Source of the DNA: an uncultured Planctomycetales bacterium | GTDB lineage: Bacteria > Omnitrophota > Gorgyraeia > Zapsychrales > Fredricksoniimonadaceae | Direction: 5' to 3' | DNA length: 64,000 nucleotides | Assembly: GCA_964572155.1 (NCBI GenBank) | Contig: CAZNDZ010000001.1 | Span: 15,300 to 79,299, forward strand | Part shown: piece after piece, positions 46,382 through 64,000 of the stretch | Position numbering within the stretch: position 1 is the first letter of the stretch | Layout of the letters: every line of letters starts with the position of its first letter | Notes under the pieces: model-generated | Seen by the model: only the letters and a program-made list of their open reading frames with translations | What the model was told of the DNA's origin: nothing | The model's database searches: none | Program-made: the position numbers and the translations under genes

Positions 46382-46383
46382 TG

Positions 46384-47673: not shown

Positions 47674-47726
47674 GAAGAATTGGCTCCCAAATGATTTAAG
47701 TGTAAGCTAAAAATCTAACACAGTCG

Positions 47727-50452: not shown

Positions 50453-50776
50453 TTAGGCGAGGGAATATTTCATCAGACGCGACATCTTTAATAAATTTAT
50501 TTTAGGAAAATTAACACCCACATCCCACATATTGGCGCTTGCTGGTTTACTCCATGCAACGCGACCTGTAAGGATTAAGGGAGAACCACCATCTGGCATT
50601 TGCACTTCTATCGATACAGGATCATCAAGGAACATGCGTTCACGGGTGCTAATGCGAATACCAGAAGCCGATGCGTCTCTTAAAAAAACTTCAACCCCAT
50701 AATCCGCACGAAAATCTTTAAAGCGCGTCGGAAAACGAGTCGAGAATCGCTCAAATATGCGGCGTTCTTGATCCAT
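50453..50776 (-). CDS. Standalone PilZ-domain protein (c-di-GMP receptor-like)
   Basis: RRIFERF (RxxxR) and DASASGIRIS (DxSxxG), the two c-di-GMP-binding PilZ motifs. 107 aa. Confidence 0.65.
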   Translation of the reverse strand: MDQERRIFERFSTRFPTRFKDFRADYGVEVFLRDASASGIRISTRERMFLDDPVSIEVQMPDGGSPLILTGRVAWSKPASANMWDVGVNFPKINLLKMSRLMKYSLA

Positions 50777-50779
50777 AGG

Positions 50780-51109
50780 TTATACTGTTTTCAAATATTT
50801 ATTCAAACGTGTTGCTGAACCTGCTAAAACTTCTTGGAAATTCATGCCAATGCGGTATTGCTTTGATTCTTCAATCTTACGCACCCATTTGACAACACCC
50901 AAAACCAACACCGGCGCTGTATCAGGCTGTAATTGGATTTCAATCGCTACTTTTTCATTGATCTCATGTGCGTGGCTCGAGATAAAACCAATGCCGTTCT
51001 TGCTAATGTCAACCGTTCTGGTTTGATCAAAAGCAGAACCTTCTTTCCCTTCTACCGGAACAATACAACCATGACGCGATTCAGTGCGTTTGTTAGCGGC
51101 AGATTTCAT
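50780..51109 (-). CDS. Standalone PilZ-domain protein (c-di-GMP receptor-like)
   Basis: KRTESRH (RxxxR) and DISKNGIGF (DxSxxG). 109 aa. Tandem with the previous PilZ gene. Confidence 0.65.
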   Translation of the reverse strand: MKSAANKRTESRHGCIVPVEGKEGSAFDQTRTVDISKNGIGFISSHAHEINEKVAIEIQLQPDTAPVLVLGVVKWVRKIEESKQYRIGMNFQEVLAGSATRLNKYLKTV

Positions 51110-51312
51110 ATGGACCTCTTCTATTTAAATATAATAACAGTGATTGGGGTTGAAAACGCTTTCTTATTTCTAATTGTAAAACATTTTCCCAAAAGTGCAA
51201 TAAAATTTCATAAAAACTTATTGTACGGGTATAACCTTAGGCAAAATAGCCACTTATAAAGAATTCTTGAGTTTATATTGCTCACGCATTCCTAAATGCT
51301 ATAATAAATTTT

Positions 51313-51510
51313 ATGGCAAAGAAACCCGCACCTGCAAAAGTAAAATTCAATATTGCTGAATACAATAAAGGAAAAGATCTGCGCGAAAAGAACAGATTAA
51401 AGCTGTTTTACCCTACCTTAGTGAAGGTTTTGGTAGCCATTCCTGTCGTCTACTTCTTATTTTTGATTATTTACTTCTTAACCACTGCGAAGAACCTGCC
51501 TGAACGTTAA
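51313..51510 (+). CDS. Hypothetical small Lys-rich protein with one C-terminal TM helix (only plus-strand gene in this region)
   Basis: 65 aa, MAKKPAPAKVKF...VKVLVAIPVVYFLFLIIYFLTT. A TATAAT box ends 8 nt before the ATG and there is no SD, so possibly leaderless. Could also be a spurious ORF. Confidence 0.3.
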   Translation: MAKKPAPAKVKFNIAEYNKGKDLREKNRLKLFYPTLVKVLVAIPVVYFLFLIIYFLTTAKNLPER

Positions 51511-52787
51511 AACTTGTAGATAAAAACGATGAAGTATCTGGATCTTGACTTATAGAATCCAAAGGTATTGCTGGGATCTCCGGCGAAGATATCCATACCA
51601 ATCTTAACTTGCCAATGGCTATTGATATTGTATTTTAAACTGGGGCGATAGAGGAAATCGGGGCTGTCAAGGCTTGCCAACATCATAAATTCGGCATCAA
51701 GCTTGTGATTTAAGAAGTCGCGCGATACTCGAAACGATGCACCATTAGAAAACCGATGTTCATTATAGAACGATTCATTGTAATCCAAGACCACCTTTTG
51801 AAAATATTGTACGCCCACATTGATCTTATCGAAAAACGTCTTATCCATCCCCAAAACATAGGTTAAATCATCACTGCGTGCCACCCCATCGTCATCACTT
51901 GGATCTAAAGAGGAAAAATAATTGTCTTTATTAAAAACAAACTCACCGCTGATGACGGTCTCACCGACTTCTTTTGAAAAAGAACCGCCAAATGAATTAA
52001 GACGCTTATATTGAGGATCGAAATTATAAACACCACTGCCGCTAATCGTGCGAAATGCCACGGGCGCATGCGTCCAACTATACACATAAAATGCCCCAAG
52101 ATCGTAGCCGCCAAGTAAGTAAGATACACGCGCACCAGCCTTGGCATCACTAAAACCATAAGGTTGTTTTGGGTCAGCTGTTGTAAAGGAAACACCTGGC
52201 GGCACTGGCAAAGGATTAGCAAATTCAGCCCCATCAACACCCATCCGATCAAATTCTGGAGCAGGGATGATAAATGTTTCCGCATGAAATTTATCGCGCG
52301 TATATTCCACATCTGCACCCCACTCAGGAGTTCGGATTTGATCGAAATCCATGAGTGTATTCTTGCGATAATCCTTGGCATTCACAATATCGGCAACAAA
52401 AGCGCCAACCGCATCACCCCAAACAATTTGCTGTTTGCCTAGACGCACGTCCCAAGGACCGTTGGAATAATCCAGATAGGTGTCGCGCAGATCAGCTTGC
52501 AGGCGTTCATCGGAGGCCGCATTGACCGAATAATTGTCTTGATCAAACGCCGCGTCATAATTAAATCTACCGCTAACACGATAATGCAAGGTTTTTGTCA
52601 AATCACCGGAGCCATCTAAAATCACTTGTGATTGGATGTTGGAAAATTTATCTGAGGCATACATGTGACGCGCCAAGGTTTGCGACATCGAACCATGCAA
52701 GACAAAAAGATTCTCATCCGCTGCAGCTAAAGTGCTGCATGCGCAAACCATCAACAACAAACCAAATGCACGGATTTGAATTTTCAT
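51507..52787 (-). CDS. Putative outer-membrane beta-barrel protein
   Basis: Signal peptide (LLLMVCACSTLAAADE). Tyr/Gly/Asp-rich alternating pattern. C-terminus YFIVFIYKF ends in Phe. 426 aa. Confidence 0.5.
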   Translation of the reverse strand: MKIQIRAFGLLLMVCACSTLAAADENLFVLHGSMSQTLARHMYASDKFSNIQSQVILDGSGDLTKTLHYRVSGRFNYDAAFDQDNYSVNAASDERLQADLRDTYLDYSNGPWDVRLGKQQIVWGDAVGAFVADIVNAKDYRKNTLMDFDQIRTPEWGADVEYTRDKFHAETFIIPAPEFDRMGVDGAEFANPLPVPPGVSFTTADPKQPYGFSDAKAGARVSYLLGGYDLGAFYVYSWTHAPVAFRTISGSGVYNFDPQYKRLNSFGGSFSKEVGETVISGEFVFNKDNYFSSLDPSDDDGVARSDDLTYVLGMDKTFFDKINVGVQYFQKVVLDYNESFYNEHRFSNGASFRVSRDFLNHKLDAEFMMLASLDSPDFLYRPSLKYNINSHWQVKIGMDIFAGDPSNTFGFYKSRSRYFIVFIYKF

Positions 52788-52805
52788 GCGTATAAAAAGA
52801 CTGCG

Positions 52806-53549
52806 TTAATAAGCCAATTTTTTTAAATACTCTTTGGAAAAATATTTTTCTGGAATTTCTTGTATCGTAATATCGCCATATTCAATCGTCGAATATTGAC
52901 CTTTCATAACGGCATCAGACAATACCAGCTTTGATGGACGCTCTGCACCTCCCAATGTCTTATAATTCTCATAACTACATGTCTTCAAAAACCTACCACT
53001 GATGGCATAAAATTCTGCTTTTAATGGCCAAAATGTATCATGTTCAGCCCATAAAATGACTTTGCCGTAGGTCGCCGTATCTGTTTTAGCTTTTAATTCC
53101 AATACATAATATTTTTTACCATTAATATCATCATCACGTAGCATGGTGGCATTATAGTCGCCGGAAAAATTGGTGCGGGCTATATCGCCATTGCTCACAT
53201 CCCCTGTTAACTTTTCTTGTAGTGAAATGCGCAAAGGTTTGGCAACTTCGGGAAAGAATGCCCAGAAATCTGGGCCACGCATTAATAATGATCGCCCTCG
53301 TTCCGTTTGAGGCTCTATGGTCTTGATGATGGTATTATCTTTCCCCTTTAACAATACTTCATACTTTGCCATGCGCTGCGCACGATTGGGCTTATAGCTA
53401 GTCACCGTGGCAATGCTCGAATGATCCTCAGCCACATTACGCACCCCGTCAACCTTAGCCACAATCTCATCCGGTGTTAATTGTGCCCATGTTGCCGTCG
53501 ATAAAATACATGCCGCAATGGTGGTAACCATCAAAAATGAATGTCTCAC
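52806..53549 (-). CDS. Outer-membrane lipoprotein-sorting protein (LolA-like fold, PF17131-type)
   Basis: Signal peptide, then QLTPDEIVAKVDGVRN...F.P......ISLQEKL, the characteristic start of LolA_like proteins that accompany FtsX-type ABC transporters. 247 aa. Confidence 0.55.
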   Translation of the reverse strand: MRHSFLMVTTIAACILSTATWAQLTPDEIVAKVDGVRNVAEDHSSIATVTSYKPNRAQRMAKYEVLLKGKDNTIIKTIEPQTERGRSLLMRGPDFWAFFPEVAKPLRISLQEKLTGDVSNGDIARTNFSGDYNATMLRDDDINGKKYYVLELKAKTDTATYGKVILWAEHDTFWPLKAEFYAISGRFLKTCSYENYKTLGGAERPSKLVLSDAVMKGQYSTIEYGDITIQEIPEKYFSKEYLKKLAY

Positions 53550-53553
53550 AAGT

Positions 53554-54423
53554 TTACTCCGTCTTTAATGTTAGCGAATAAATCATGCGTTTTAAACGTT
53601 GTAAAGGGCTTTTCATCCCTAAAGGATAATATCGTTGATTCACCTGTTGGGTGAACATATCAAACTGATAAATATGCGGCGCATAATCAACCTTGGCTTT
53701 GCCTGTTAACATCTTGACGGTTTCTGTGCTCGACAAAGCCCCAACCAGCATAAGCCCAGGGCAAACACTAGCCCCTCGACGCTGCTTCGGATTCAATACC
53801 CGAGAGCGATCAAGGTATTTTAAACAAAATGGATTTGGATTTAAGCCCGCAATCATGGTTAAAATTTTTTGAGTAGGATCAAGCTTGTCGGAAAAATCAA
53901 AATATTCATCAAAGCTCATGCCTGTTGGAGAAAACATGATCATCGTCGCCCCAAAACCCATGGGTGCACATGTTAAAGACGGGATGCCTTTAAGCCGCGT
54001 GTGACGAAAGAATAAACGTTTGACCTCGATCTCATAGAGATCAATTCCATCTAATGCCACATCAACACCGTCTAAGAATGCTGTGATATTTTCTGGGTTA
54101 ATGCCTTTGGAAAAAACTTCCACCTTCGCTTGTGGATTGATATCTAAGATCATCTGACGCATGACCTCGCATTTGTCCACACCGATCGTCGACATCGTCG
54201 CACCCATTTGTCGATTCATATTGGTCATATCAAAGGTATCTAAATCCGCAATGCGAAAAGCACCGACACCTAAACGTGCTAAAGCCTGAGCTTGGTATCC
54301 ACCGGCCCCACCAACACCGGCAATGGCCACAAGCGAGCTTTTTAATTTAGCTTGTTGCTCCTCGGTGAGCCAACCTAAATTGCGATCAAATGCTTTTTCA
54401 TAAACAAATTCATTAGCCGGCAT
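53554..54423 (-). CDS. ThiF/MoeB/HesA-family E1-like adenylyltransferase
   Basis: SLVAIAGVGGAGGYQAQALARLGVGAFRIADLDTFDMTNMNRQ is the nucleotide-binding Rossmann motif of E1-like enzymes. 289 aa. Not part of the thi operon. Confidence 0.7.
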   Translation of the reverse strand: MPANEFVYEKAFDRNLGWLTEEQQAKLKSSLVAIAGVGGAGGYQAQALARLGVGAFRIADLDTFDMTNMNRQMGATMSTIGVDKCEVMRQMILDINPQAKVEVFSKGINPENITAFLDGVDVALDGIDLYEIEVKRLFFRHTRLKGIPSLTCAPMGFGATMIMFSPTGMSFDEYFDFSDKLDPTQKILTMIAGLNPNPFCLKYLDRSRVLNPKQRRGASVCPGLMLVGALSSTETVKMLTGKAKVDYAPHIYQFDMFTQQVNQRYYPLGMKSPLQRLKRMIYSLTLKTE

Positions 54424-54425
54424 GA

Positions 54426-54914
54426 TTATGAGCTTTCCGTCTTAGGTGAATATTTTTCTTTATAATATTTTTTCAAATCTTGGGGCGTATGGTTATGTTG
54501 CAAAAAATTTGCGCGCCATGTTTTGGCTTTATGGCAATGAGGCAAATCTTTATTTTGTATCGGGCAGTAGCGTTTTTCTATTTCATTGGTGATGGCCAAG
54601 GTCCATTGCAAGGTGCCGTTCGCCCACTCGCAATATTCACACCACATCTTATCCATGAATCCCATGTGAGGCACTTTGTGACGATCATATTGAAAAAAGT
54701 TTTTAGGATCGACGGGTTTTTGCCCACGCAGGCTAAAATACGCCCAATTAAAAAAGAACGTGTACAAATATAAGGGCAACAAAAATATGGCAAAAGAAAC
54801 CATGACGGGATAACCCAATAACGGGGTTAAAGGCCCGAGGGGTTGTTTGTGACCTTCACAACAACTAAGCTCTTTTAAACAAGCTTGGACACTTACTTTT
54901 TCTGTATTAGACAT
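54426..54914 (-). CDS. Cys/His-rich single-pass membrane protein of unknown function
   Basis: 162 aa, one TM (GYPVMVSFAIFLLPLYLYTFFF). Cys/His clusters (CLKELSCCEGH, CEYCEW, CP...HCH). 2-nt gap to the ThiF-like gene. Confidence 0.4.
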   Translation of the reverse strand: MSNTEKVSVQACLKELSCCEGHKQPLGPLTPLLGYPVMVSFAIFLLPLYLYTFFFNWAYFSLRGQKPVDPKNFFQYDRHKVPHMGFMDKMWCEYCEWANGTLQWTLAITNEIEKRYCPIQNKDLPHCHKAKTWRANFLQHNHTPQDLKKYYKEKYSPKTESS

Positions 54915-54973
54915 AGGAAACCTTTCTATGGTTAGAATACCATAGCCTCGGCGTGAATTAATAAATAATTTGA

Positions 54974-56194
54974 TTAAATTTCGTAGATTTCTTTAAGGTA
55001 AGCTTGATGCTCGGGCTTGAAGTTATTCCAGAATGTGCTGTTTTTAACAAGGCCTTGTACAAACGGTTTAGACAAGGTGAAATCCATGTTAAAGGTGCGT
55101 GGGTATTTCGTTTCTTTAAAGAAGTACATGCCTGGGCCTTCTTTAAGCAACATCGTATGGCGATAAGCATCCGGGATGCTTAATTTCATCAACACCGCCG
55201 GAGCAGCGTTGGCACCATGATAGGCTTTTGCTGGGCTGATGGTTTCAAAATTCAAATATTTGTATAAGAATTCATGGCGTGGATGACAACCGATGATAAA
55301 ATCCGTAACCTTATTCGACGCACGTGCATAATCGAACATCGTCTTGTATAACTTATATAGATACGCTTGTTTCTGGAAATTCTTAAACGAGTATTGCTTC
55401 ATGTTCACATGTTGAGAATTTAACGCCAATGCGCCTACTTCCGCAATCTTCTTGCCTTGTGCACGCAGGTTCTTAATTTCTTCAGGAAAAATTGTTTCCA
55501 TCGGAATGCCCATCGGTGAATCTGCCACCAAACACATGGTCCCTAAAAGTTTTTCATCTTTGCGAAGCAAGAAGGTGCGTGATCCGGGAACAAAACTATA
55601 AGAATTATAAAACATGTTTTCTTGATTAGGCACACACAACTTGCGTGACAAATATTCTTGATACACCAACGCATATGCCGCTTTTAATTCATCCAAATCA
55701 TCGACGTCTAAACCACTACAATCTGCCGTATATTTTTCTAAGAACCAGCTATTAATATCAGCCAAACTCCAAAGCACATTATTTAATTGATGAAATTTGA
55801 TCGCTTTTTCTTTAAACGCAATGTGACATAGGTTCTGATTATTTTTACCTGTAGAAAAACCAACAACCTTGCCCGTTAATTTAAAAACTTCACGGACATT
55901 CATATTCTTCTTGGGTATCTCAACATCAATGGCTTCTCCAACTTCAACCAAACCACTAACTTCAATGCACATACCGCTACGAGAAATATTAACCGTCTTT
56001 GACATTTCCCACGTAGGATTAACTTGATTTGATAATTGGTAATATATAGGAATGACTTTATTAATGCGGTTTTCGCGGCGTAATTCATCCACAAAAACAG
56101 TTTTCATAATACTGGAAGATAACTGCTGAAGCCCTTCTTCCAAATGTTCGAAGGGATTGCTTGATTCTGTAGTATGGTCCAACTTGAATTTCAT
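54974..56194 (-). CDS. Fusion of an N-terminal PilZ domain with a C-terminal GNAT-fold N-acyltransferase of the FeeM/OlsB/autoinducer-synthase-like family (Acetyltransf_5)
   Basis: PilZ motifs ELRRENRI (RxxxR) and NISRSGMCIEV (NxSxxG). The C-terminal about 250 aa (LKAAYALVYQEYL..., FLLRKDEKLLGTMCLVADSPMGIPME, IAEVGALAL) fits the N-acyl-amino-acid synthase family pattern. Confidence 0.5.
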   Translation of the reverse strand: MKFKLDHTTESSNPFEHLEEGLQQLSSSIMKTVFVDELRRENRINKVIPIYYQLSNQVNPTWEMSKTVNISRSGMCIEVSGLVEVGEAIDVEIPKKNMNVREVFKLTGKVVGFSTGKNNQNLCHIAFKEKAIKFHQLNNVLWSLADINSWFLEKYTADCSGLDVDDLDELKAAYALVYQEYLSRKLCVPNQENMFYNSYSFVPGSRTFLLRKDEKLLGTMCLVADSPMGIPMETIFPEEIKNLRAQGKKIAEVGALALNSQHVNMKQYSFKNFQKQAYLYKLYKTMFDYARASNKVTDFIIGCHPRHEFLYKYLNFETISPAKAYHGANAAPAVLMKLSIPDAYRHTMLLKEGPGMYFFKETKYPRTFNMDFTLSKPFVQGLVKNSTFWNNFKPEHQAYLKEIYEI

Positions 56195-56298
56195 GGGTAC
56201 TCCCTCTTTTCCACATACGTCCCGCTAACATTAGTTTAGCATGCAGGAACCCAAAAACAAGGTCTGGAGGCTGTATTTGAGAAAGCGGTTTCTTGAAA

Positions 56299-57564: not shown

Positions 57565-59318
57565 GCGGTGATAACCCCATCCCAGATGCGCACCAATCGA
57601 TCGGCCTCATCCATGACTTTTTGATCGTGGGTTGAAAATATGTAAGTGATCTTCTTTTCACGACTGCTCTTCTTCATTAGCGCAATGATCTCTTCGCCTG
57701 TTTTATGATCGAGGTTCGCTGTTGGCTCGTCGGCTAAGATGAATAGTGGCTCACGCACCATGGCACGGGCAATGGCCACTCGTTGCTGTTGGCCGCCACT
57801 TAACTCTAAGGGCTTATGGTTGGCATGCTTCGATAAACCAACTGCATCCAATGCCGCCAACGCTTTACGTCGACGCTCTTGCGGTGTCATAGTCTTTTGT
57901 AACAATGGAAACTCAACATTCTCAACAGCTGAAAGCACAGGCAACAAATTAAAATTCTGAAAAATAAAACTAATCTTATGCGCCCGCAAATCAGCCAACG
58001 CATCGGGCGATAATTTCGACACATCTTGACCATCGATGATCACCTGTCCGGAACTAGCCGTGTCAATGCAACCAATGATATTGAGCAACGTCGTCTTACC
58101 GCTGCCCGACGGGCCAGCAATGGCTAAAAATTCCCCACGGCCAACGCTTAAATTGATGCCTTTAAGCACATCGACGCGGTTCTTGTTTAAAAAATAGCTT
58201 TTATTAACATTGCTGATATTAATTAACGACATATGATTATCCTTATTGACGGCATCTTTGACCATGATCTCATTTAACGACAGCCGAATTGACCGTGATG
58301 TTTTAGGTTTAGCAAATCCAACCCGCCCCATCCACACCAAATTCTTACGAATACTGTCACTCCCTAACAATGTTGATAAGTCCTCTTTAATATCCATCGC
58401 TTTTTCTTTTACATGCGGCATGGTCGACAAAACCTTACCCTCATCAAGATACTTTGAAAAAAGCATGGGTGTATACGACGGCTGATGCGACAATCCTTGG
58501 GATGTTAGTGCCAACCAAAAGCGTTGGATAGCTCTACCCGCCGCTATCCAATCCTCAGGCGTTGTAGGTGTTTTATCAGTGACGATGGCAATGCCAGCAG
58601 AGCACATGATGTTGGGCAATAATTCCAACTTCAATGCGGTCATATAATGACCTAACATCAAACGGTTATAGGCTTCCATGCGTTGCGGTTTACCTAAGAA
58701 CCAACGCATGATCGGCAAGAATAGTGTTGGCATACCTAAAGCCTTAGACGGAATTCGATCAGGACTTAAGTCGTGTTCCCAATCAACAATCTTGCTGTGC
58801 ACATCAAACATTTCTGGAATTAAATACCGTAACGCTGCTGATTTGAAAATGAGCGAAGCAAAATCCATTTTTTGTTTATCTTCAAACCATAAAATCTTAT
58901 ACCCCGACGGCATTTGTGCTTCTATATTTTTCTTTTCCGTATCTTTTAACGGTGTCATGGCATATGTGAAACGATTGACCATCCGGTGTTCGATGAAACG
59001 GGCTAATGGATCAACCTTAGGATTTTGTGATTTTGAAACAACGACACGATAAACCGGCGCTTTGCCTAGTTGTGGTGGATCTACCTTATCAACAACGATA
59101 TCAAATCCCAAAGCCCCTGCTGCTGTATGCATATTTTCCAAAAAACAGCCTAAGGCAATATGATCAGAATGTCGATTTAGATGAAAGATGGTGTCGAGCA
59201 AATACCCCGTTGTGACCTCACAAGCATCCTCCGCGATCATCTTAACCCGCCATGCCTGTTCATTGTCTCCGCTGGGCGCCCATCGAGCTTTATCTAAAAG
59301 TTTTTCAATATGTGTCAC
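57561..59318 (-). CDS. Fusion: N-terminal nitroreductase-like domain (about 360 aa) + C-terminal LolD/MacB-type ABC ATPase
   Basis: N-terminus [13 protein letters not shown] matches the nitroreductase APSxxNxQPW signature, plus HRMVNRFTY (RxSxRxF-like). C-terminus [13 protein letters not shown] (Walker A), [14 protein letters not shown] (ABC signature), ILADEPT (Walker B). ATGA overlap with the downstream FtsX gene. Confidence 0.65.
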
Positions 59319-59339
59319 AATAAACCTCCCCCAATCAAA

Positions 59340-60608
59340 CTACCTGTAACGCAATGCTTCGACAATATTAAGCCGCGATGCCCTGCATGCAGGAAACCAC
59401 GACGATATTCCGCCAATCATGGTTGATAAAAAAAATGTAAATACCATCACCGAAGGCACAATGACTGGCTGAGAAATCCAACTCATGGTGGTTCCCGGCG
59501 ACGGCGGCATCACAATCCCAACCTTGCTAATACCAAAAACAATCACACATCCCATGCTCACACCAATCAAACCACCGACCATCCCCAAGAGGATGCCTTC
59601 GTATAAAAACAATGTCAAAATGCCTTTGCGTTTAACACCCATGGCCATGATGGTGCCAATTTCACTAAAACGTTCCATGACCGACATGTTCATGGTGTTA
59701 AAAATTCCCAAAATAACGGCGATGGATATAACAATGCGCATCACCCAATGGAATGTATTAAATAGATCTGCTGTCTTTACATAGAAATCAGAAAGCTCGT
59801 CCCATGTTTTAATTTCTAAATCATAGTGATACAACTTAAACAAGCGCTCTAGCCCTGCTTTCACCTTTAAGGTATCGTTGGTATTATGCAACTTCACAAC
59901 AATGTTTTGAACCGATGTTGTATTGAGCATTGATTGCGCTGTGGCTAAGGACATTCTAACGGTCATGTCATCATAATTCTTATCTGACGTTGCCATTACG
60001 CCTTTGACGTGCATGTCCATGGCATTAACACCGCCATGGACGGTATTGGTCATCACCGTCACAAATGCCCCTGGCTTCACATTAAGCGCTTCTGACAAAC
60101 CTTTGCCAATGATCAACGTTTCTGGCACATCTTGGGCGCTTAAACCATCCCCCACAATGATTTCACCTAATCCATTATCATCAGGACTTATCGATGTCGA
60201 TTTTCGGTCTTTGTATTTTGACGTTAAGAAGGTGCGGTCAAAATCAATGTTAACACCTTGACCCATGCATGGCAGTGAAGCATCGCCCAAATTGATAAGA
60301 CCAGAAAACTGCAAACGCGAACCAACCGATTTTACTTGTGGGATCTTATGAATCACATCCGCAATGGCTTGCGGGTCGCTAATGAGATAACTATAGGGCG
60401 AAATCTTGCTGTTTTTTTCGTAACCCGCTTTGAATATCTGAAGATGTCCAATTTGAGCATTGATGTAACTTTCTTTCATTTGAGTTAACGCATCGGTGAA
60501 GAATCCAGCGACAAACATGAGAGCGACACAACCAAAAGCAATCGTTGATAATGAAATGATCGATCGCGCTTTATGTCTAAAAATATTTCGCAAGGCAATA
60601 TTAAACAT
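59340..60608 (-). CDS. FtsX-family ABC transporter permease (LolC/MacB-like), paralog of 56299..57564
   Basis: MFNIALRNIFRHKARSIISLSTIAFGCVALMF and the same architecture as the paralog. The longest ORF extends to 60653, but the Met at 60608 aligns with the paralog start. Confidence 0.75.
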   Translation of the reverse strand: MFNIALRNIFRHKARSIISLSTIAFGCVALMFVAGFFTDALTQMKESYINAQIGHLQIFKAGYEKNSKISPYSYLISDPQAIADVIHKIPQVKSVGSRLQFSGLINLGDASLPCMGQGVNIDFDRTFLTSKYKDRKSTSISPDDNGLGEIIVGDGLSAQDVPETLIIGKGLSEALNVKPGAFVTVMTNTVHGGVNAMDMHVKGVMATSDKNYDDMTVRMSLATAQSMLNTTSVQNIVVKLHNTNDTLKVKAGLERLFKLYHYDLEIKTWDELSDFYVKTADLFNTFHWVMRIVISIAVILGIFNTMNMSVMERFSEIGTIMAMGVKRKGILTLFLYEGILLGMVGGLIGVSMGCVIVFGISKVGIVMPPSPGTTMSWISQPVIVPSVMVFTFFLSTMIGGISSWFPACRASRLNIVEALRYR

Positions 60609-62190
60609 CGGAGTACCTTCCCGGAGACATGATGCCTTTAGGATCAAGGGCATGCTTAATGGAACGCTGTACTTTCCAAAATGTATCCTCAGGGTTTACC
60701 AAATCATGCATCATATCAACACCTGTGCGATAAGGATATACACCCATCTTACGCCCACCTTCTAACAATGCTTCAAAACAGGCCTTGGCGCGTTGTGTTT
60801 GATCTTCGTTGTTTAAATCAAAAAGAATTGGGACCGTACTATCAAAACATTTTTCAGAAACACTCGATAACGTGATCAATGGCTCCATTTGATACTGCGC
60901 ACATGTGCGCTCGACAAAATCAATATAACGTCTAACAAGTGCCGCTTTCATGGGAACTAATGGTGCGTACCATAAAAGACCACAACCATCCCGTGCTGGA
61001 TTTAACGTAACCCCTTGGGGAACACCTTGCCGCAACTGACGATAACATAAACTTAATGCCCCACCGTTGGGACGCCCCTCAGATAGATCTAATGGGATCA
61101 GCATTTTTTGAAACTGCACAAATAAGGCTTTTGGAATAATAAACCCCAATGGTTTTAAAATCGACTGCAGCAAGAGCACACGCGAACGTGTTAAGAAAAT
61201 CACCCGATTCACATCTGGTTTAATGCGTGCTTTGAGCGCATGCTTAGCTGCTTTGATGATCGATTTCTTTCCATAAAAAGAACCAATGCATGTCCACGGC
61301 GCATATCCTGCTTGCTTGGCCTGTTGCTTTAAGTGTGCAATAAAATTATTTGGGGATGCCGCAACCTCATCAAAAGGAAACGGAAGTGTCATGGATAGCA
61401 ATTGCAATGAACTGATCATTTTAATTGAACCAATCAAAGCACCATGTTCAATCAGAACATTTCGCACCAGGTCAACAGTCTTTTCCAAATCAGCATCTGA
61501 GGAAATGTCAAAATAAAATGTTTCCACATGTTCTGGTCGTGGGGCTAAGGCAATGGTCATTTCTGTGACAATGCCATAATTGCTTTGTGAAAATATACCA
61601 TCAATATATGGGCCTATCCCCCATTTAAAAACCTTGTCGACCTGATGACATCCTTTCGCATAAATCGCTGAACGATATATGGTCCCATTGGCCAATACCG
61701 CTTCTAAATTCATGACAGCGAAGAAATGGTCCGCAAGAGGAACCAAGCCATAGCCGCGCTCTAAAGCATTCCCTAGAATACTAGCCTCAGGACCTGCACC
61801 TGTTGTTGGCATAAGATACTCATCACCATGTTCTAATAAAAATGTCGCTAGTTGCCCTTGCGTTACCCCTGGCTCTACAGTGATCACTCCCAAATCAGCA
61901 TCATAGCCACTAATTTTTGTCATGCCTGAAAGATCAACAATCACACAACCATCCGTTGCTGGATTAGCAGTACCATAACCCCAATTATTGCCTTTGCTAA
62001 TAGGATATAAAGCAATGTTATGTTGATTAGCAATTTTAACAATATCCACGACTTCTTGTCGTGTGGTCGGGGCAACAACGCCTAATATTTCACGTTTGGC
62101 ACCTGTTGTATCAGCATGGTATTTTTCAAGATCTTGCGGATTTGTTTTCACATGGATACTACCAAATATGTGCATCATTTTATCAATCAT
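60601..62190 (-). CDS. FAD-linked oxidase (PCMH-type FAD_binding_4 domain, VAO/GlcD superfamily)
   Basis: N-terminal FAD-binding domain (VVAPTTRQEVVDIVKIANQHNIALYPISKGNNWGYG...VIVDLSGMTKI), C-terminal substrate-binding domain ending SPGRY. 529 aa. Confidence 0.65.
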   Translation of the reverse strand: MIDKMMHIFGSIHVKTNPQDLEKYHADTTGAKREILGVVAPTTRQEVVDIVKIANQHNIALYPISKGNNWGYGTANPATDGCVIVDLSGMTKISGYDADLGVITVEPGVTQGQLATFLLEHGDEYLMPTTGAGPEASILGNALERGYGLVPLADHFFAVMNLEAVLANGTIYRSAIYAKGCHQVDKVFKWGIGPYIDGIFSQSNYGIVTEMTIALAPRPEHVETFYFDISSDADLEKTVDLVRNVLIEHGALIGSIKMISSLQLLSMTLPFPFDEVAASPNNFIAHLKQQAKQAGYAPWTCIGSFYGKKSIIKAAKHALKARIKPDVNRVIFLTRSRVLLLQSILKPLGFIIPKALFVQFQKMLIPLDLSEGRPNGGALSLCYRQLRQGVPQGVTLNPARDGCGLLWYAPLVPMKAALVRRYIDFVERTCAQYQMEPLITLSSVSEKCFDSTVPILFDLNNEDQTQRAKACFEALLEGGRKMGVYPYRTGVDMMHDLVNPEDTFWKVQRSIKHALDPKGIMSPGRYSDV

Positions 62191-63791
62191 CGAGAGTACC
62201 TGCCTGGAGACATGATATTGTTAGGATCTAATGCCTGCTTGATCGATGCTTGTACATTCCAAAATGAATGTTCTGGATCAACCACGTCTTTCATCATGCC
62301 AATGCCCGCCCGATGAGGGTATGCCCCTCGCAAACGCCCCCCTTCAATCAGCGCCGCTAAACACTCTTTGGCTCGCCGAGACTGATCTGTATTCATCGGA
62401 TCAAATAAAATAGGTATTGGGCTAATGATGCAACGTTCCGAGATGCTGGTCAATGTTACTAATGGTTCAATGCCGTAATGCTCACATGTGTTTTCTACAA
62501 ATTGAACATACGCACTTGCGGTATGCGGCTGTAATGGTAAAAGTGGTGCATACCAATAAATACCACATCCATCCGCTGCTGGATTTAGATTCTTTCCTTT
62601 GGGAACACCTTGACGCAGTTGTCGATAACATATGTGCAACGTTTCCTGCCGCGGCTTACCTGACAAAATATCGAGCATCATGGTCATCTTTTCAAAACGA
62701 TTCCTAATTTTCGAAAACAAATTCTTCGGTAAACGTGAAAATAACGCATCAATGAATAAAATTTTCTCTTTAGATAAGAACAAAACCCGTCGAGATCGTT
62801 CTCTAACTATTTTGACCAATTCTTTTTTAACAGCTTGGATGACATACTTATGTCCGTAAAGTGATCCCATGCAAGTCCACGCATAAAATCCATTTTCTTT
62901 GGCTTTACGCTTTAAAATACTTTTGGCTTTATCTGGCGTGGCATCAATTTCATCAAAAGGATAATCTGCGGTCACAGCTGATAATCGTAAATCACTCATG
63001 ATATTGATTGACCCAGAAAACACACCAACATCTTTAAGTATTTTTCTAACCGTCACTATCGCATCCTCTAAATCTTCTTCCTTTGAGAATTCAATGAAAA
63101 ATATTTCGATGCATTCTGGCTTGGGTCGCAAGGCAATCGTTGCTTTTGTCACAATACCAAAATTACTTTGAGAGAACAAACCATCGAGATATGGGCCAAT
63201 GCCCCATTTGAAGACCCCATCAACATCTTCACATTCTTTAGCATGGATGGCAGAATGATAGATACTACCATCAGCTAATACAACTTCTAAACTCATGACA
63301 GCAAGAAAATGATCCGCAATCGGCACTAAACCATAACCACGTTCTAAAGAATTTCCTAAGATCGTGCCATCAGGACCAGTGCTGGTCGTTGGGGTTATAT
63401 ATAAATCATCGTGTTTTAAAAGAAATGCCGCAAGCTGTTCTTGAGTAACGCCTGGCTCTAATGTCACAACCCCTAATTGTGGGTCGTAGCCACTAATAGT
63501 ATTCATGCCAGATAAGTCCACAATGACAGAACCACTTTGTGCAGGATTTGCCGAACCATATCCCCAATTATTTCCCTTACTAATAGGATATAGCGCAATG
63601 CCGTATTCCGACGCGATCTTAACAATCGCAACAACTTCAGTTGACGTGATTGGCCTTAAAACACCTGAAATGATGCGGGATGAATTTGTTGTATCAGCGT
63701 GGTACTTTTGCAAGTCAAACGCTTGTGTTTTTACGCGTTCAGCGCCAAGCAAATTTTGCCATGCAGTTAAAGCTACTGATAAGTTATCCAT
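62187..63791 (-). CDS. FAD-linked oxidase (PCMH-type FAD_binding_4), tandem paralog of 60601..62190
   Basis: VLRPITSTEVVAIVKIASEYGIALYPISKGNNWGYG...VIVDLSGMNTI, about 50% identical to its neighbour across the full length. ATGA overlap with the downstream paralog. Confidence 0.65.
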   Translation of the reverse strand: MDNLSVALTAWQNLLGAERVKTQAFDLQKYHADTTNSSRIISGVLRPITSTEVVAIVKIASEYGIALYPISKGNNWGYGSANPAQSGSVIVDLSGMNTISGYDPQLGVVTLEPGVTQEQLAAFLLKHDDLYITPTTSTGPDGTILGNSLERGYGLVPIADHFLAVMSLEVVLADGSIYHSAIHAKECEDVDGVFKWGIGPYLDGLFSQSNFGIVTKATIALRPKPECIEIFFIEFSKEEDLEDAIVTVRKILKDVGVFSGSINIMSDLRLSAVTADYPFDEIDATPDKAKSILKRKAKENGFYAWTCMGSLYGHKYVIQAVKKELVKIVRERSRRVLFLSKEKILFIDALFSRLPKNLFSKIRNRFEKMTMMLDILSGKPRQETLHICYRQLRQGVPKGKNLNPAADGCGIYWYAPLLPLQPHTASAYVQFVENTCEHYGIEPLVTLTSISERCIISPIPILFDPMNTDQSRRAKECLAALIEGGRLRGAYPHRAGIGMMKDVVDPEHSFWNVQASIKQALDPNNIMSPGRYSR

Positions 63792-64000
63792 GATGCCCTT
63801 ATCATCTCAAATTATCAGACAATAAACAAAACTCTTTTTGGATTTTTACTTGCCGATGCAGAAAGCAGAAAAGATTTTATCGAGCAGATCTTGATCAATA
63901 TTGCGACCGGTAATGGCATCGCATTGATTAACCGCATCTTTGATATTGTGTGACACAATCTCCCATGAGGCATTTGTCTTAATCAAGGCTGTGCTTTCTT

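What the first reader, a model, noticed from the sequence alone, without database searches (positions are those of the whole stretch)
50453..63791. PilZ-dense locus combining a LolCDE-like transporter, a LolA-like carrier, an acyltransferase, an E1-like enzyme and two FAD oxidases
Eleven co-directional, tightly packed minus-strand genes, several with ATGA overlaps:
- two standalone PilZ proteins
- an outer-membrane beta-barrel protein
- a LolA-like periplasmic carrier
- a ThiF-family E1
- a Cys/His-rich membrane protein
- a PilZ::FeeM/OlsB-like N-acyltransferase
- an FtsX-ABC(ATPase)-FtsX set in lolC-lolD-lolE order, whose ATPase carries a nitroreductase-like N-terminal domain
- two paralogous FAD-linked oxidases

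Three PilZ domains within 6 kb and enzyme fusions not seen in characterised Lol or MacAB systems point to a c-di-GMP-controlled pathway. My hypothesis is that the pathway builds and redox-tailors an N-acylated (amino)lipid or peptide-like product and moves it to the outer membrane. I do not recognise this gene combination as a described system. The window ends at 64000, so the locus may continue.
Basis: partly seen in the sequence, partly recalled or inferred. Interest (0 to 1): 0.85.

Follow-up and report, generated by a model that had tools for sequence, protein, structure and literature searches.

The report
Acyl-oxazolone lipid cluster with dedicated exporter
This locus, from an uncultured Omnitrophota bacterium, most likely makes a recently described lipid (an N-acyl-tyrosine-derived oxazolone), but unlike described examples it sits next to its own Lol-like export machinery and its first enzyme carries a c-di-GMP-sensing domain.

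Summary
[quoted passage not shown] That pathway makes acyl-oxazolones and N-acyl-dehydrotyrosines. The ThiF protein is 39% identical, and the nitroreductase-like flavin oxidase (FDO) 35% identical, to the two halves of a Rheinheimera OxzB-type fusion.

New here:
- **Conserved module.** NAS, ThiF, FDO, two FtsX permeases, an ABC ATPase, a LolA-like protein and a DUF1302 outer-membrane protein recur together. I found them in Omnitrophota-like metagenomes and in about a fifth of related beta/gammaproteobacterial loci.
- **PilZ on the NAS.** The domain is N-terminal and keeps intact c-di-GMP-binding motifs.
- **Two VAO/PCMH-type 4-phenol oxidases.** These point to a tyrosine-derived substrate.
- **A conserved 162-aa membrane protein** with no annotated family.

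Corrections:
- The FDO::ATPase fusion is a stop-codon loss seen only in this species.
- The locus ends at 63791, because mnmE lies upstream.
- The two standalone PilZ genes sit beyond an opposite-strand gene and 14 bp from a GH94 sugar operon, so their membership is doubtful.

Verdict: a new variant of a known kind, of moderate to high interest.

The parts
62187..63791 (-). FAD_a: VAO/PCMH-family (4-phenol oxidoreductase-like) flavoprotein, 534 aa. First gene of the locus.
   Evidence: Pfam FAD_binding_4, 77.9 bits. PDB p-cresol methylhydroxylase 1dii, E 5.8e-57; vanillyl-alcohol and eugenol oxidases, E 1e-40 to 1e-50. It keeps the GYG Tyr but has YPHR where PCMH has Tyr-Arg. 84% identical in L006.
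60601..62190 (-). FAD_b: paralogous VAO/PCMH-family flavoprotein, 529 aa.
   Evidence: 56% identical to FAD_a. PDB 1dii, E 5.3e-60. The equivalents of PCMH Tyr95 and Tyr473-Arg474 are conserved (GYG; YPYR). The covalent-FAD Tyr384 aligns with Asn.
59340..60608 (-). FtsX_a: MacB/LolC-type permease. The ORF runs to 60653, but the likely start is Met16 at 60608.
   Evidence: Pfam MacB_PCD plus FtsX. NCBIfam lolCE, 100.7 bits against a cut-off of 362. 48% identical to FtsX_b, with the alignment starting at Met16.
58233..59318 (-). FDO domain (aa 1-362 of the 585-aa ORF): flavin-dependent oxidase of the nitroreductase superfamily, like TyzC and the C-terminal half of OxzB. Predicted N-acyl amino acid desaturase.
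   Evidence: NCBIfam Acg-family, 97 bits; Rv1355c family, 92 bits; PRK14851 C-terminal part, 78 bits. 35% identical over 355 aa to the C-terminal half of the Rheinheimera pacifica ThiF-FDO fusion. ThiF is adjacent or fused in 75 of 82 homologous loci.
57561..58232 (-). ABC ATPase (aa 363-585), LolD/MacB-like. Fused in frame to the FDO by loss of a stop codon. It keeps its own Met and an AAGGA Shine-Dalgarno-like sequence.
   Evidence: Pfam ABC_tran, 112.9 bits. LolD TIGR02211, 225 bits, below the 307.75 cut-off. Junction compared with L006 and L005. No other 585-aa fusion among 48 homologues.
56299..57564 (-). FtsX_b: second MacB/LolE-type permease, 421 aa.
   Evidence: Pfam MacB_PCD plus FtsX. 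lolCE, 88.8 bits against a cut-off of 362. 33-38% identical to the FtsX genes in proteobacterial oxazolone loci.
54974..56194 (-). PilZ::NAS: N-terminal PilZ (aa 38-128) fused to a FeeM-type N-acyl amino acid synthase (aa 172-338). OxzA/TyzA equivalent and first committed step.
   Evidence: Pfam FeeM, 123.9 bits; PilZ, 31 bits. PDB FeeM 2g0b, E 4.5e-13. RRENR and NISRSG motifs are present. R43, S71, G74 and E252 (the Glu of the IAEVGAL motif, proposed catalytic residue) are invariant in 17 homologues.
54426..54914 (-). p162: small single-pass, Cys-rich membrane protein of an unannotated family. Function unknown. Conserved between the NAS and ThiF genes.
53554..54423 (-). ThiF-like adenylating enzyme, 289 aa. 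Equivalent to TyzB and the N-terminal half of OxzB. Predicted ATP-dependent oxazolone cyclase.
   Evidence: Pfam ThiF, 137.7 bits. NCBIfam NF006077, 343 bits, above the 266 cut-off; also matches the ThiF part of the PRK14851/PRK14852 fusions. 39% identical over 277 aa to the R. pacifica OxzB-type fusion.
52806..53549 (-). LolA-like (PF17131/TP_0789-like) periplasmic carrier with a signal peptide.
   Evidence: Pfam, 155 bits. PDB 3buu, Nitrosomonas europaea NE2245, E 8.6e-65. 38-47% identical to LolA-like genes in proteobacterial oxazolone loci.
51507..52787 (-). DUF1302 outer-membrane protein with a signal peptide. Last gene of the biosynthesis-export operon.
   Evidence: Pfam DUF1302, 51.7 bits. 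30-35% identical over about 390 aa to DUF1302 genes in proteobacterial oxazolone loci.
51313..51510 (+). Conserved 65-aa opposite-strand gene (one predicted TM helix), convergent with DUF1302. Marks the operon boundary.
   Evidence: Called as a gene in L001-L003. Its translation is about 85% conserved in L006 by eye.
50453..51109 (-). Two standalone PilZ genes (50780-51109 and 50453-50776). Membership doubtful: they are probably co-transcribed with the downstream GH94/sugar-uptake genes.
   Evidence: PilZ, 43.8 and 46.8 bits. RxxxR and DxSxxG are present. They lie 14 bp from GH94 and 397 bp from DUF1302. The same layout occurs in L006. They are absent from L087, L095, L097 and L106.
63846..64000 (-). 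3' end of mnmE, a housekeeping gene. Left border of the locus.
   Evidence: 82% identical over 50 aa to the C-terminus of L006 MnmE. mnmE also precedes the cluster in L005 and L006.

Best explanation
The nine to ten genes at 51507-63791 form a biosynthesis-and-export cluster for an N-acyl aromatic amino acid lipid of the acyl-oxazolone / N-acyl-dehydrotyrosine class. The host is an uncultured Omnitrophota bacterium.

**Proposed steps**
1. The PilZ::NAS protein transfers a fatty acyl group onto an aromatic amino acid, most likely tyrosine. c-di-GMP binding to its N-terminal PilZ domain gates this first committed step.
2. The flavin-dependent oxidase (FDO) domain desaturates the C-alpha/C-beta bond.
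3. The ThiF-like enzyme adenylates the carboxylate and closes the oxazolone ring. The ring may later hydrolyse to the dehydro-acid.
4. The two VAO/PCMH-type flavoproteins further oxidise the 4-hydroxybenzyl part.
5. The FtsX-ABC-FtsX transporter (type VII ABC, with LolCDE/MacB-like mechanics) extracts the lipid from the inner membrane. It passes it to the LolA-like periplasmic carrier, which delivers it to the DUF1302 outer-membrane protein.

**Shown here:** domain identities, homology to characterised enzymes, motif conservation and conserved synteny.

**Inferred:** the substrate, the reaction order, the role of the VAO-like enzymes, the direction and endpoint of transport, the effect of c-di-GMP, and the role of the 162-aa membrane protein.
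For: **Biosynthetic core**
- The NAS is a FeeM-family enzyme (123.9 bits; PDB 2g0b E 4.5e-13). The Glu of its IAEVGAL motif (E252) is invariant in 17 homologues. By motif comparison with the Nas354 mutagenesis primer I equate it with the catalytic Glu103 of Nas354 / Glu95 of FeeM (PMC4897644).
- ThiF is 39% identical over 277 aa, and the FDO 35% over 355 aa, to the two halves of the R. pacifica ThiF-FDO fusion. A GNAT/FeeM-like gene lies directly upstream of that fusion. R. pacifica is one of the species whose oxzAB pair de Rond et al. PCR-amplified to test its function.
- NCBIfam models PRK14852 (FeeM+ThiF+nitroreductase) and PRK14851/Rv1355c (ThiF+nitroreductase) show that the same three domains occur fused.
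- The triad makes acyl-tyrazolones in Mtb (PMC10404671). It is also linked to stieleriacines, thalassotalic acids and kyonggic acids (PMC12479983).

**Export module**
- Gene order is identical in L006. Variants occur in L005, L087 and L095.
- Of 46 proteobacterial FDO loci of at least 18 kb, 10 carry FtsX+ABC+LolA-like within 10 kb. Seven of those also carry DUF1302, and 15 carry a LolA-like gene.
- The transport proteins are full-length homologues at 30-61% identity, similar to the enzymes at 34-44%.

**Tyrosine substrate**
- Both FAD proteins match p-cresol methylhydroxylase and vanillyl-alcohol/eugenol oxidases at E 1e-40 to 1e-60. FAD_b keeps the phenolate-binding Tyr/Tyr-Arg.
- NAS::PilZ enzymes made N-myristoyl-tyrosine in E. 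coli (PMC4897644).

**c-di-GMP**
- The NAS PilZ domain has RxxxR and [D/N]xSxxG motifs. R43, S71 and G74 are invariant across the family.
- The Mtb trzAS locus lies next to c-di-GMP turnover genes (PMC12856293).
Against: - No product has been detected and no activity measured. The organism is uncultured.
- The window NAS shows no significant BLASTP similarity to the R. pacifica OxzA-like protein. The two share only family-level HMM hits, so the amino-acid specificity is unproven.
[quoted passage not shown] The end product may therefore be the open dehydro-acid (PMC12479983).
- Most proteobacterial oxzAB-type loci (about 36 of 46) have no full FtsX+ABC+LolA-like set within 10 kb (31 of 46 have no LolA-like gene), so export by this system is not obligatory for the pathway.
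- FAD_a lacks one residue of the phenolate triad, and neither the covalent-flavin residue nor the catalytic base of PCMH aligns. The VAO-like genes are confined to the window/L006 clade.
- No component is known that would flip the lipid to the periplasmic leaflet.
Confidence: 0.7

Rival explanations
1. Same biosynthetic core, but the FtsX/ABC/LolA-like/DUF1302 set is a self-protection or secretion pump. It would expel a surfactant or antibiotic N-acyl-tyrosine derivative into the medium rather than deliver a structural or signalling lipid to the outer membrane.
For: N-acyltyrosines are biosurfactants with antibiotic and haemolytic activity (PMC4897644). Stieleriacines act on other bacteria in biofilms (PMC12479983). 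The permeases have MacB-type architecture (MacB_PCD plus FtsX), and the ATPase is also close to the darobactin and bacteriocin export ATPase models.
Against: There is no MacA-type adaptor or TolC-type channel in the locus. Instead there is a soluble LolA-fold carrier and a DUF1302 outer-membrane protein, a layout that resembles shuttle-type lipid trafficking. Sequence alone cannot tell release from outer-membrane insertion.
Confidence: 0.2
2. The ThiF-like and nitroreductase-like enzymes modify a ribosomal peptide (a RiPP pathway, as with MccB/PaaA-type ThiF enzymes or McbC-type dehydrogenases). The ABC system exports that peptide.
For: ThiF-like enzymes are common in RiPP clusters that include transporters (PMC12596934). 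Small ORFs exist in the locus: p162 and the 65-aa ORF.
Against: ThiF and the FDO are full-length homologues (39% and 35%) of the small-molecule enzyme OxzB. An NAS with a conserved active-site Glu motif is always adjacent. p162 is a membrane protein from a widespread family found in unrelated contexts. I saw no precursor-like peptide or RRE domain in the Pfam results.
Confidence: 0.04
3. The FtsX-ABC-FtsX set and the LolA-like protein are the organism's housekeeping lipoprotein-sorting (Lol) system, and merely sit next to unrelated biosynthetic genes.
For: The gene order resembles lolC-lolD-lolE. The best NCBIfam names are lolCE and LolD. A LolA-fold protein lies adjacent.
Against: Scores are far below the equivalog cut-offs: 88.8 and 100.7 against 362, and 225 against 307.75. 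The carrier matches PF17131, not the LolA family. The same transport set recurs beside NAS/ThiF/FDO genes in distant Omnitrophota-like and proteobacterial lineages.
Confidence: 0.03
4. All three PilZ proteins act on this pathway. The two standalone PilZ proteins would be c-di-GMP adaptors for the transporter or enzymes.
For: The PilZ pair is conserved at the same position in L006, and both proteins carry canonical motifs.
Against: The pair is separated from DUF1302 by 397 bp and a conserved convergent gene, and lies 14 bp from GH94. It is absent from the other PilZ::NAS clusters: L087, L095, L097 and L106.
Confidence: 0.2

Closest known systems
OxzAB oxazolone synthetase pathway (Pseudoalteromonas rubra, Rheinheimera pacifica and others; de Rond et al., bioRxiv 10.1101/2020.06.11.147165)
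   Same: An N-acyltransferase, a ThiF-like domain and a nitroreductase-like domain are clustered. The window ThiF and FDO are 39% and 35% identical to the two halves of an R. pacifica OxzB-type fusion.
   Different: Here ThiF and FDO are separate genes, and the FDO is fused to an ABC ATPase. The NAS carries a PilZ domain and is not BLAST-similar to the R. pacifica OxzA-like protein. OxzAB was described as a two-gene operon, and that preprint does not contain the words 'transporter' or 'ABC'.
TyzABC and TrzAS acyl-oxazolone clusters of Mycobacterium tuberculosis (PMC10404671, PMC12856293)
   Same: The three-enzyme logic is split in the same way: acyltransferase, FDO desaturase, ThiF cyclase. 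A membrane transporter gene lies nearby (mmpL9). trzAS sits next to c-di-GMP turnover genes.
   Different: The host phylum and envelope differ. The transporter is of a different type (MmpL/RND against FtsX-ABC with LolA-like and DUF1302). In Mtb the c-di-GMP link is by adjacency only, whereas here PilZ is fused to the enzyme. The Mtb clusters have no VAO-type oxidases.
N-acyl-dehydrotyrosine clusters (stieleriacines in Stieleria, thalassotalic acids, kyonggic acids; PMC12479983)
   Same: NAS, ThiF and nitroreductase genes are clustered, with several NAS paralogues and a UbiE-like methyltransferase in some. L005 and L087 show the same features.
   Different: That paper does not mention PilZ, transporters or export. 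The products seen there are open dehydro-acids, not oxazolones.
Nas343/Nas354, metagenomic NAS::PilZ N-acyltyrosine synthases (PMC4897644)
   Same: A FeeM-type NAS is fused to a PilZ domain. The same IAEV(S/G)AL active-site Glu motif is present. Those enzymes make N-acyl-tyrosine.
   Different: The domain order is reversed (NAS N-terminal and PilZ C-terminal there), which implies an independent fusion. Those genes were reported as not lying in a biosynthetic operon.
LolCDE-LolA-LolB lipoprotein trafficking and MacAB-TolC efflux
   Same: Two FtsX/MacB_PCD permeases flank one ATPase. A soluble LolA-fold periplasmic protein and an outer-membrane partner are present. By analogy, a lipidic cargo would be extracted from the inner membrane.
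   Different: Scores fall below all Lol equivalog cut-offs. The carrier is PF17131, not LolA. The outer-membrane partner is DUF1302 rather than LolB. There is no MacA or TolC. The system is embedded in a small-molecule biosynthetic cluster.
NE2245 of Nitrosomonas europaea (PDB 3buu), an uncharacterised LolA-superfamily protein
   Same: Closest solved structure to the window's LolA-like protein (E 8.6e-65 over residues 23-245). Nitrosomonadaceae loci carry the same seven-gene module (L028).
   Different: No function or ligand is recorded for NE2245. I could not inspect its own gene neighbourhood.

Membership tests
OxzAB/TyzABC-type acyl-oxazolone (N-acyl-dehydro aromatic amino acid) pathway | N-acyl amino acid synthase of the FeeM/GNAT-like fold with a catalytic Glu | tested here: met
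   PF21926, 123.9 bits. PDB 2g0b, E 4.5e-13. E252 in the IAEVGAL motif is invariant. I equate it with Nas354 Glu103 by motif comparison with the mutagenesis primer (PMC4897644).
OxzAB/TyzABC-type acyl-oxazolone (N-acyl-dehydro aromatic amino acid) pathway | ThiF-like adenylating/cyclising enzyme homologous to TyzB or the N-terminal half of OxzB | tested here: met
   39% identity over 277 aa to the R. pacifica ThiF-FDO fusion. NF006077, 343 bits, above the 266 cut-off. The GxGxxG and DxDxxxxxNxNRQ motifs are visible in the sequence.
OxzAB/TyzABC-type acyl-oxazolone (N-acyl-dehydro aromatic amino acid) pathway | Flavin-dependent oxidase of the nitroreductase superfamily that is associated with ThiF (FDO-A type) | tested here: met
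   35% identity over 355 aa to the C-terminal half of the same fusion. Matches the Rv1355c and PRK14851 models. 75 of 82 homologous loci have ThiF adjacent or fused. Assignment to a named FDO-A subcluster of PMC10404671 was not made.
OxzAB/TyzABC-type acyl-oxazolone (N-acyl-dehydro aromatic amino acid) pathway | The three genes are clustered in one orientation | tested here: met
   All three lie within 53554-59318 on the minus strand. They are conserved together in L005, L006, L087, L095, L097 and L106.
OxzAB/TyzABC-type acyl-oxazolone (N-acyl-dehydro aromatic amino acid) pathway | The product is an acyl-oxazolone or N-acyl-dehydro amino acid | not testable with these tools
   Requires expression and LC-MS/NMR.
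LolCDE/LolA lipoprotein-sorting system | Permeases and ATPase reach the LolC/LolE/LolD equivalog thresholds | tested here: not met
   TIGR02212, 88.8 and 100.7 bits against 362.45. TIGR02211, 225 bits against 307.75. The LolC and LolE exception models score 34-74 bits against 439-540.
LolCDE/LolA lipoprotein-sorting system | The periplasmic carrier belongs to the LolA family proper | tested here: not met
   Only PF17131 LolA_like/TP_0789-like was hit. No NCBIfam LolA model matched.
MacAB-TolC tripartite efflux pump | MacB-type permease (MacB_PCD plus FtsX) with a cognate ATPase | tested here: met
   PF12704 plus PF02687 in both permeases. The ATPase scores 211 bits to the MacB model's N-terminal part, far below the full-length cut-off.
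MacAB-TolC tripartite efflux pump | A membrane-fusion adaptor (MacA/HlyD type) and a TolC-type channel encoded with it | tested here: not met
   No such domain appears in any of the twelve genes or in the downstream genes.
VAO/PCMH 4-phenol oxidoreductase subfamily | FAD_binding_4 domain and full-length similarity to PCMH, VAO or eugenol oxidase | tested here: met
   E 5e-57 to 5e-60 to 1dii/1wve, and 1e-39 to 1e-50 to VAO/EUGO. By contrast, alkyl-DHAP synthase scores about 3e-7 and D-lactate dehydrogenase about 1e-11.
VAO/PCMH 4-phenol oxidoreductase subfamily | Phenolate-binding Tyr / Tyr-Arg triad (PCMH Tyr95, Tyr473, Arg474; numbering from my own knowledge) | tested here: inconclusive
   FAD_b keeps all three (GYG; YPYR) in the HMMER alignment. 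FAD_a has His in place of the second Tyr (YPHR). The covalent-FAD Tyr384 aligns with Asn in FAD_b.
PilZ c-di-GMP receptors | PF07238 above threshold with RxxxR and [D/N]xSxxG motifs | tested here: met
   All three domains exceed the 22.5-bit cut-off. Motifs: RIFER/DASASG, RTESR/DISKNG and RRENR/NISRSG. R43, S71 and G74 are invariant in the PilZ::NAS family.
PilZ c-di-GMP receptors | Binds c-di-GMP and changes the partner's activity | not testable with these tools
   Requires a binding assay and enzyme kinetics.

The most novel reading that the evidence does not exclude
NAS, ThiF, FDO, two FtsX permeases, ABC ATPase, LolA-like (PF17131) and DUF1302 form an ancient, horizontally shared cassette. 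In it, a Lol-like machine has been recruited to carry a small acyl-oxazolone or N-acyl-tyrosine lipid across the periplasm to the outer membrane or cell surface. If so, this would be the first functional assignment for the PF17131/DUF1302/FtsX-ABC systems, including structural-genomics protein NE2245, and the first described trafficking route for oxazolone lipids. In the Omnitrophota-like lineages, production would additionally be switched directly by c-di-GMP through an N-terminal PilZ domain on the first enzyme.
Probability: 0.4. Interest if true: 0.75.

Novelty: new variant of a known kind. Interest (0 to 1): 0.58.

Why it matters
Acyl-oxazolones and N-acyl-dehydrotyrosines were discovered only in 2020-2025. 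Their cellular fate and function remain open questions. The Mtb papers state that where the lipid goes is unknown and point only to a neighbouring mmpL9 gene.

This locus and its relatives link the pathway to a complete envelope-crossing transport set and to a c-di-GMP sensor. That gives concrete hypotheses which can be tested in cultivable Proteobacteria carrying the same module, such as Nitrosovibrio, Thiobacillus and Rubrivivax.

It also proposes a cargo for two uncharacterised families, PF17131 LolA-like and DUF1302, and for the solved but unexplained structure 3buu. Finally, it extends the pathway to Omnitrophota, a phylum of uncultured bacteria.

Tried and rejected
**Uninformative or unavailable**
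- Promoter and terminator scans found no more sites than shuffled sequence.
- Rfam found no RNA family in the window, so no c-di-GMP riboswitch.
- Exact-sequence cluster look-ups returned no names or taxa. I inferred the taxon from MnmG homologues instead.
- The afdb50 fold library was unavailable.

**p162**
- It has no Pfam or NCBIfam family.
- The neighbourhoods of three distant family members share no theme.

**Alternative roles considered and rejected**
- The FAD oxidases as GlcD-type 2-hydroxy-acid dehydrogenases or alkyl-DHAP synthase (ether lipids). PCMH/VAO hits are 40-50 orders of magnitude better.
- Canonical LolCDE, on HMM cut-offs and synteny.
- A RiPP pathway, because of full-length homology to OxzB, the constant NAS partner, and no precursor or RRE.
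- The FDO::ATPase fusion as a conserved architectural feature. It is a single stop-codon loss unique to this species.

**Negative comparison**
- BLASTP of the window NAS against the R. pacifica OxzA-like protein was not significant. The link between them rests on shared family HMMs.

Full report
**1. What is in the sequence**

The minus strand between 50453 and 63791 carries twelve ORFs.
- Two standalone PilZ proteins.
- A DUF1302 outer-membrane protein.
- A LolA_like (PF17131) protein.
- A ThiF-family protein.
- A 162-aa protein with no family.
- A PilZ+FeeM fusion.
- Two MacB_PCD+FtsX permeases flanking an ABC ATPase whose ORF begins with a nitroreductase-like region.
- Two FAD_binding_4 proteins. 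These are 56% identical paralogues. The two permeases are 48% identical.

All top named homologues of the window's MnmG, at 71-78% identity, are Candidatus Omnitrophica/Omnitrophota MAGs. The exact proteins occur in several independent assemblies but carry no names. The window is therefore chromosomal DNA of an uncultured Omnitrophota bacterium. It also encodes LeuRS, MnmG, a ClpA/B-like ATPase, ComEC and an AsmA/DUF748 protein.

**2. Borders**

Left border:
- Upstream of 63791, the last 50 codons of the neighbouring ORF are 82% identical to the C-terminus of the MnmE gene that precedes the same cluster in relative L006.
- The locus therefore starts at 63791 and does not run off the window.

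Right border:
- DUF1302 ends at 51507.
- A 397-bp spacer follows. It holds a 65-aa plus-strand ORF (51313-51510) with one predicted hydrophobic helix. The ORF is about 85% conserved in L006 by eye and was called as a gene in independent assemblies.
- Only then come the two standalone PilZ genes, which end 14 bp before a GH94 gene. A sugar-binding protein, two ABC permeases and a GH2/TPR protein follow.
- This layout places the PilZ pair with the sugar operon rather than with the cluster. The pair is also missing from the more distant PilZ::NAS clusters.

**3. The biosynthetic core is a known pathway**

Family matches:
- The ThiF protein passes the NCBIfam equivalog NF006077 (343 bits against a cut-off of 266). 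It also aligns to the ThiF parts of PRK14851 and PRK14852.
- The FeeM domain aligns to the N-terminus of PRK14852.
- The first 362 residues of the 'ATPase' align to the Acg-family, Rv1355c-family and PRK14851 C-terminal models.
- These three activities therefore occur as natural fusions elsewhere.

Literature:
- A search on FeeM and ThiF found Grigg et al. 2023 (PMC10404671). [quoted passage not shown]
- The earlier OxzA/OxzB system of Pseudoalteromonas and others works the same way.
- The same triad is linked to N-acyl-dehydrotyrosines: stieleriacines, thalassotalic acids and kyonggic acids (PMC12479983).

Direct comparison:
- The window ThiF is 39% identical over 277 aa to the N-terminal half of a 655-aa ThiF-FDO fusion in Rheinheimera pacifica (L079). 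The FDO is 35% identical over 355 aa to its C-terminal half.
- A GNAT/FeeM-like gene lies directly upstream of that fusion. R. pacifica is one of the species whose oxzAB pair de Rond et al. PCR-amplified to test its function.
- The window NAS is not BLAST-similar to that OxzA-like protein. It is, however, a strong FeeM-family member (123.9 bits; PDB 2g0b E 4.5e-13).
- The Glu of its IAEVGAL motif is invariant. By motif comparison with the mutagenesis primer I equate it with Glu103 of Nas354, shown there to be essential (PMC4897644).

**4. The nitroreductase::ATPase fusion**

- Among 48 homologues of the FDO domain, only the window's own protein is 585 aa. The rest are standalone proteins of about 350 aa or larger proteins that also carry a ThiF domain.
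- In L006 (57% identical) the FDO and ATPase genes are in the same frame, separated by one TGA and 18 nt. In L005 they are in different frames.
- In the window the stop is gone. The ATPase's own Met and an AAGGA sequence a few nucleotides upstream of it remain.
- The fusion is real, since it appears in several assemblies. But it is young and species-specific, and the ATPase may still be made separately.
- It is not a conserved architectural feature.

**5. The transporter link is conserved and is the main new observation**

Close and intermediate relatives:
- L006 has exactly the same order: mnmE | FAD, FAD, FtsX, FDO, ABC, FtsX, PilZ-NAS, p167, ThiF, LolA-like, DUF1302 | PilZ, PilZ, GH94.
- L005 swaps the oxidases for a nucleotidyltransferase and an RmlD-like epimerase. 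It adds a second PilZ-NAS and a UbiE-like methyltransferase.
- L087 has four PilZ-NAS paralogues (plus a fifth FeeM-domain ORF cut by the locus end), a ThiF-FDO fusion, ABC, FtsX and a LolA-like gene.
- L095 has PilZ-NAS, FDO, ThiF, LolA-like, FtsX and ABC.

Species-representative genomes:
- A scan with an FDO alignment returned 80 loci, nearly all Beta- or Gammaproteobacteria.
- Of the 46 with at least 18 kb retrieved, 43 have ThiF next to or fused with the FDO. Ten have FtsX+ABC+LolA-like within 10 kb, seven of those also have DUF1302, and 15 have a LolA-like gene.
- PF17131 genes are rare in a genome. By my own estimate, a chance neighbour within 20 kb would occur in about 1% of loci, so this rate is far above chance.
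- The transport proteins in these loci are full-length homologues of the window's: FtsX 33-38%, ABC 54-61%, LolA-like 38-47%, DUF1302 30-35%. That is about as similar as the enzymes: ThiF 39-44%, FDO 34-37%. This fits inheritance of the whole set as a unit.
- The closest solved structure to the LolA-like protein is NE2245 of Nitrosomonas europaea (3buu, E 8.6e-65), an uncharacterised structural-genomics target.

Canonical Lol and prior literature:
- The permeases and ATPase score far below the LolC/E/D equivalog thresholds. No MacA or TolC is present.
- None of the oxazolone or N-acyl-tyrosine papers I read mentions an ABC transporter, a LolA-like protein or PilZ in this context. Only mmpL9 next to tyz is noted.
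- A search for LolA-like, FtsX and nitroreductase together found nothing.

**6. c-di-GMP**

- All three PilZ domains have RxxxR and [D/N]xSxxG motifs.
- In an alignment of 17 PilZ::NAS proteins (29-81% identical), the second Arg and the Ser and Gly of these motifs are invariant. This argues that ligand binding is under selection.
- The fusion family is small: 17 hits, all from uncultured organisms, the one named hit being Omnitrophica. It consistently heads NAS-FDO-ThiF operons.
- A NAS-PilZ link is already published. Nas343 and Nas354 from a biofilm metagenome have the NAS N-terminal and PilZ C-terminal, and make N-myristoyl-tyrosine in E. coli (PMC4897644). The reversed order here implies an independent fusion, which strengthens the functional link.
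- In Mtb, trzAS sits next to c-di-GMP turnover genes (PMC12856293).

**7. The FAD oxidases**

- Both proteins match p-cresol methylhydroxylase (E about 1e-57 to 1e-60) and vanillyl-alcohol, eugenol and 4-allylsyringol oxidases (1e-39 to 1e-50). They match GlcD, D-lactate dehydrogenase and alkyl-DHAP synthase far less well.
- FAD_b conserves the equivalents of the PCMH phenolate-binding residues Tyr95 and Tyr473-Arg474 (residue numbering from my own knowledge). It has Asn at the covalent-flavin Tyr384 position. FAD_a has His-Arg in place of Tyr-Arg.
- No cytochrome subunit is encoded nearby.
- Enzymes of this subfamily attack the benzylic carbon of para-substituted phenols. The 4-hydroxybenzyl group of N-acyl-tyrosine is such a substrate.
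- I infer a tyrosine-derived product, and beta-hydroxylation, beta-oxidation or an alternative desaturation as their role. This step is inference only, and these genes are confined to the window/L006 clade.

**8. p162**

- The 162-aa protein has one long hydrophobic helix followed by a CxYCxW/YANG...CPI motif. It has no Pfam or NCBIfam family.
- An exhaustive search found 201 representatives at E <= 1e-3. R78, C92, C95, E113 and C117 are invariant.
- The neighbourhoods of three distant members share no theme.
- In the Omnitrophota clade it always sits between the NAS and ThiF genes. Its role is unknown.

**9. Mechanism proposed**

1. c-di-GMP binds the PilZ domain of the NAS and permits N-acylation of tyrosine.
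2. The FDO desaturates, and ThiF adenylates and cyclises to the oxazolone, which may hydrolyse to the dehydro-acid.
3. The VAO-like pair tailors the aromatic side chain.
4. The FtsX2-ABC2 complex extracts the lipid from the inner membrane by MacB/LolCDE-type mechanotransmission. The LolA-like carrier ferries it to DUF1302 in the outer membrane.

Homology and synteny are shown. The chemistry, the direction of transport and the regulation are inferred. I give the overall reading 0.7. The main alternative keeps the chemistry but sees the transporter as a secretion or self-protection pump (0.2). RiPP, canonical Lol and chance juxtaposition are each below 0.05.

**10. Verdict**

The core is a new member of the oxazolone/N-acyl-dehydrotyrosine pathway family.

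The following together make it a new variant of a known kind:
- The conserved coupling to a Lol-like, LolA-like and DUF1302 export set.
- The N-terminal PilZ gate.
- The phenol oxidases.
- The Omnitrophota host.

These features give testable leads on what oxazolone lipids are for and where they go.

Noticed in passing
window 51313-51510 (+): A conserved 65-aa ORF with one predicted hydrophobic helix (MAKKPAPAKVKF...TTAKNLPER). It is convergent with DUF1302 and overlaps its 3' end by 4 nt. About 85% conserved in L006 by eye. Function unknown.
   Followed up: partly
window 57561-59318 compared with L006:10001-11743: The FDO is the least conserved protein of the cluster between the window and L006 (57%, against 73-92% for the other genes). 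Divergence may have accelerated around the time of the stop-loss fusion to the ATPase.
   Followed up: no
window 54426-54914; alignment A2: p162 belongs to an unannotated family of small membrane proteins with about 200 representative clusters and the motif CxYCxYANG...TExYWCPIKH. The AF2 model is confident, but there is no Pfam family and no structural neighbour. It could be a candidate for a new domain family.
   Followed up: partly
window 42334-50438 (-): A sugar-utilisation operon directly downstream: GH94 (903 aa), a solute-binding protein, two ABC permeases and a TPR+GH2-like protein. No ATPase gene lies in the stretch. The two standalone PilZ genes precede it by 14 bp, which hints at c-di-GMP control of glycan uptake or phosphorolysis.
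   Followed up: partly
window 14493-17651 (-) and 11889-13256 (+): Large ORFs of 1052 aa and 455 aa with no Pfam match at E <= 1e-5.
   Followed up: no
window 23627-24907 and 24907-26193 (-): Two abutting ORFs of 426 and 428 aa. The first has UvrD N- and C-terminal helicase domains. This could be a split or two-part UvrD/Rep-like helicase. The second ORF was not scanned.
   Followed up: no
L079:11163-11987 (-): In Rheinheimera pacifica, the gene next to the OxzA/OxzB-like pair encodes a PEP-CTERM protein. This echoes the reported genetic link between some N-acyl amino acid synthases and PEP-CTERM/exosortase systems.
   Followed up: no
L005:8284-9973 and 15722-16399; L087:8236-13823: Relatives vary the tailoring set around the same core. 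L005 has an RmlA-like nucleotidyltransferase, an RmlD-like epimerase and a UbiE-like methyltransferase in place of the FAD oxidases. L087 has four tandem PilZ::NAS paralogues (and a fifth FeeM-domain ORF at the locus end). This suggests a family of differently decorated products.
   Followed up: partly
window 1977-5018 (+): A 1013-aa AsmA/DUF748 protein, consistent with a diderm envelope that has bulk lipid-transfer machinery.
   Followed up: no
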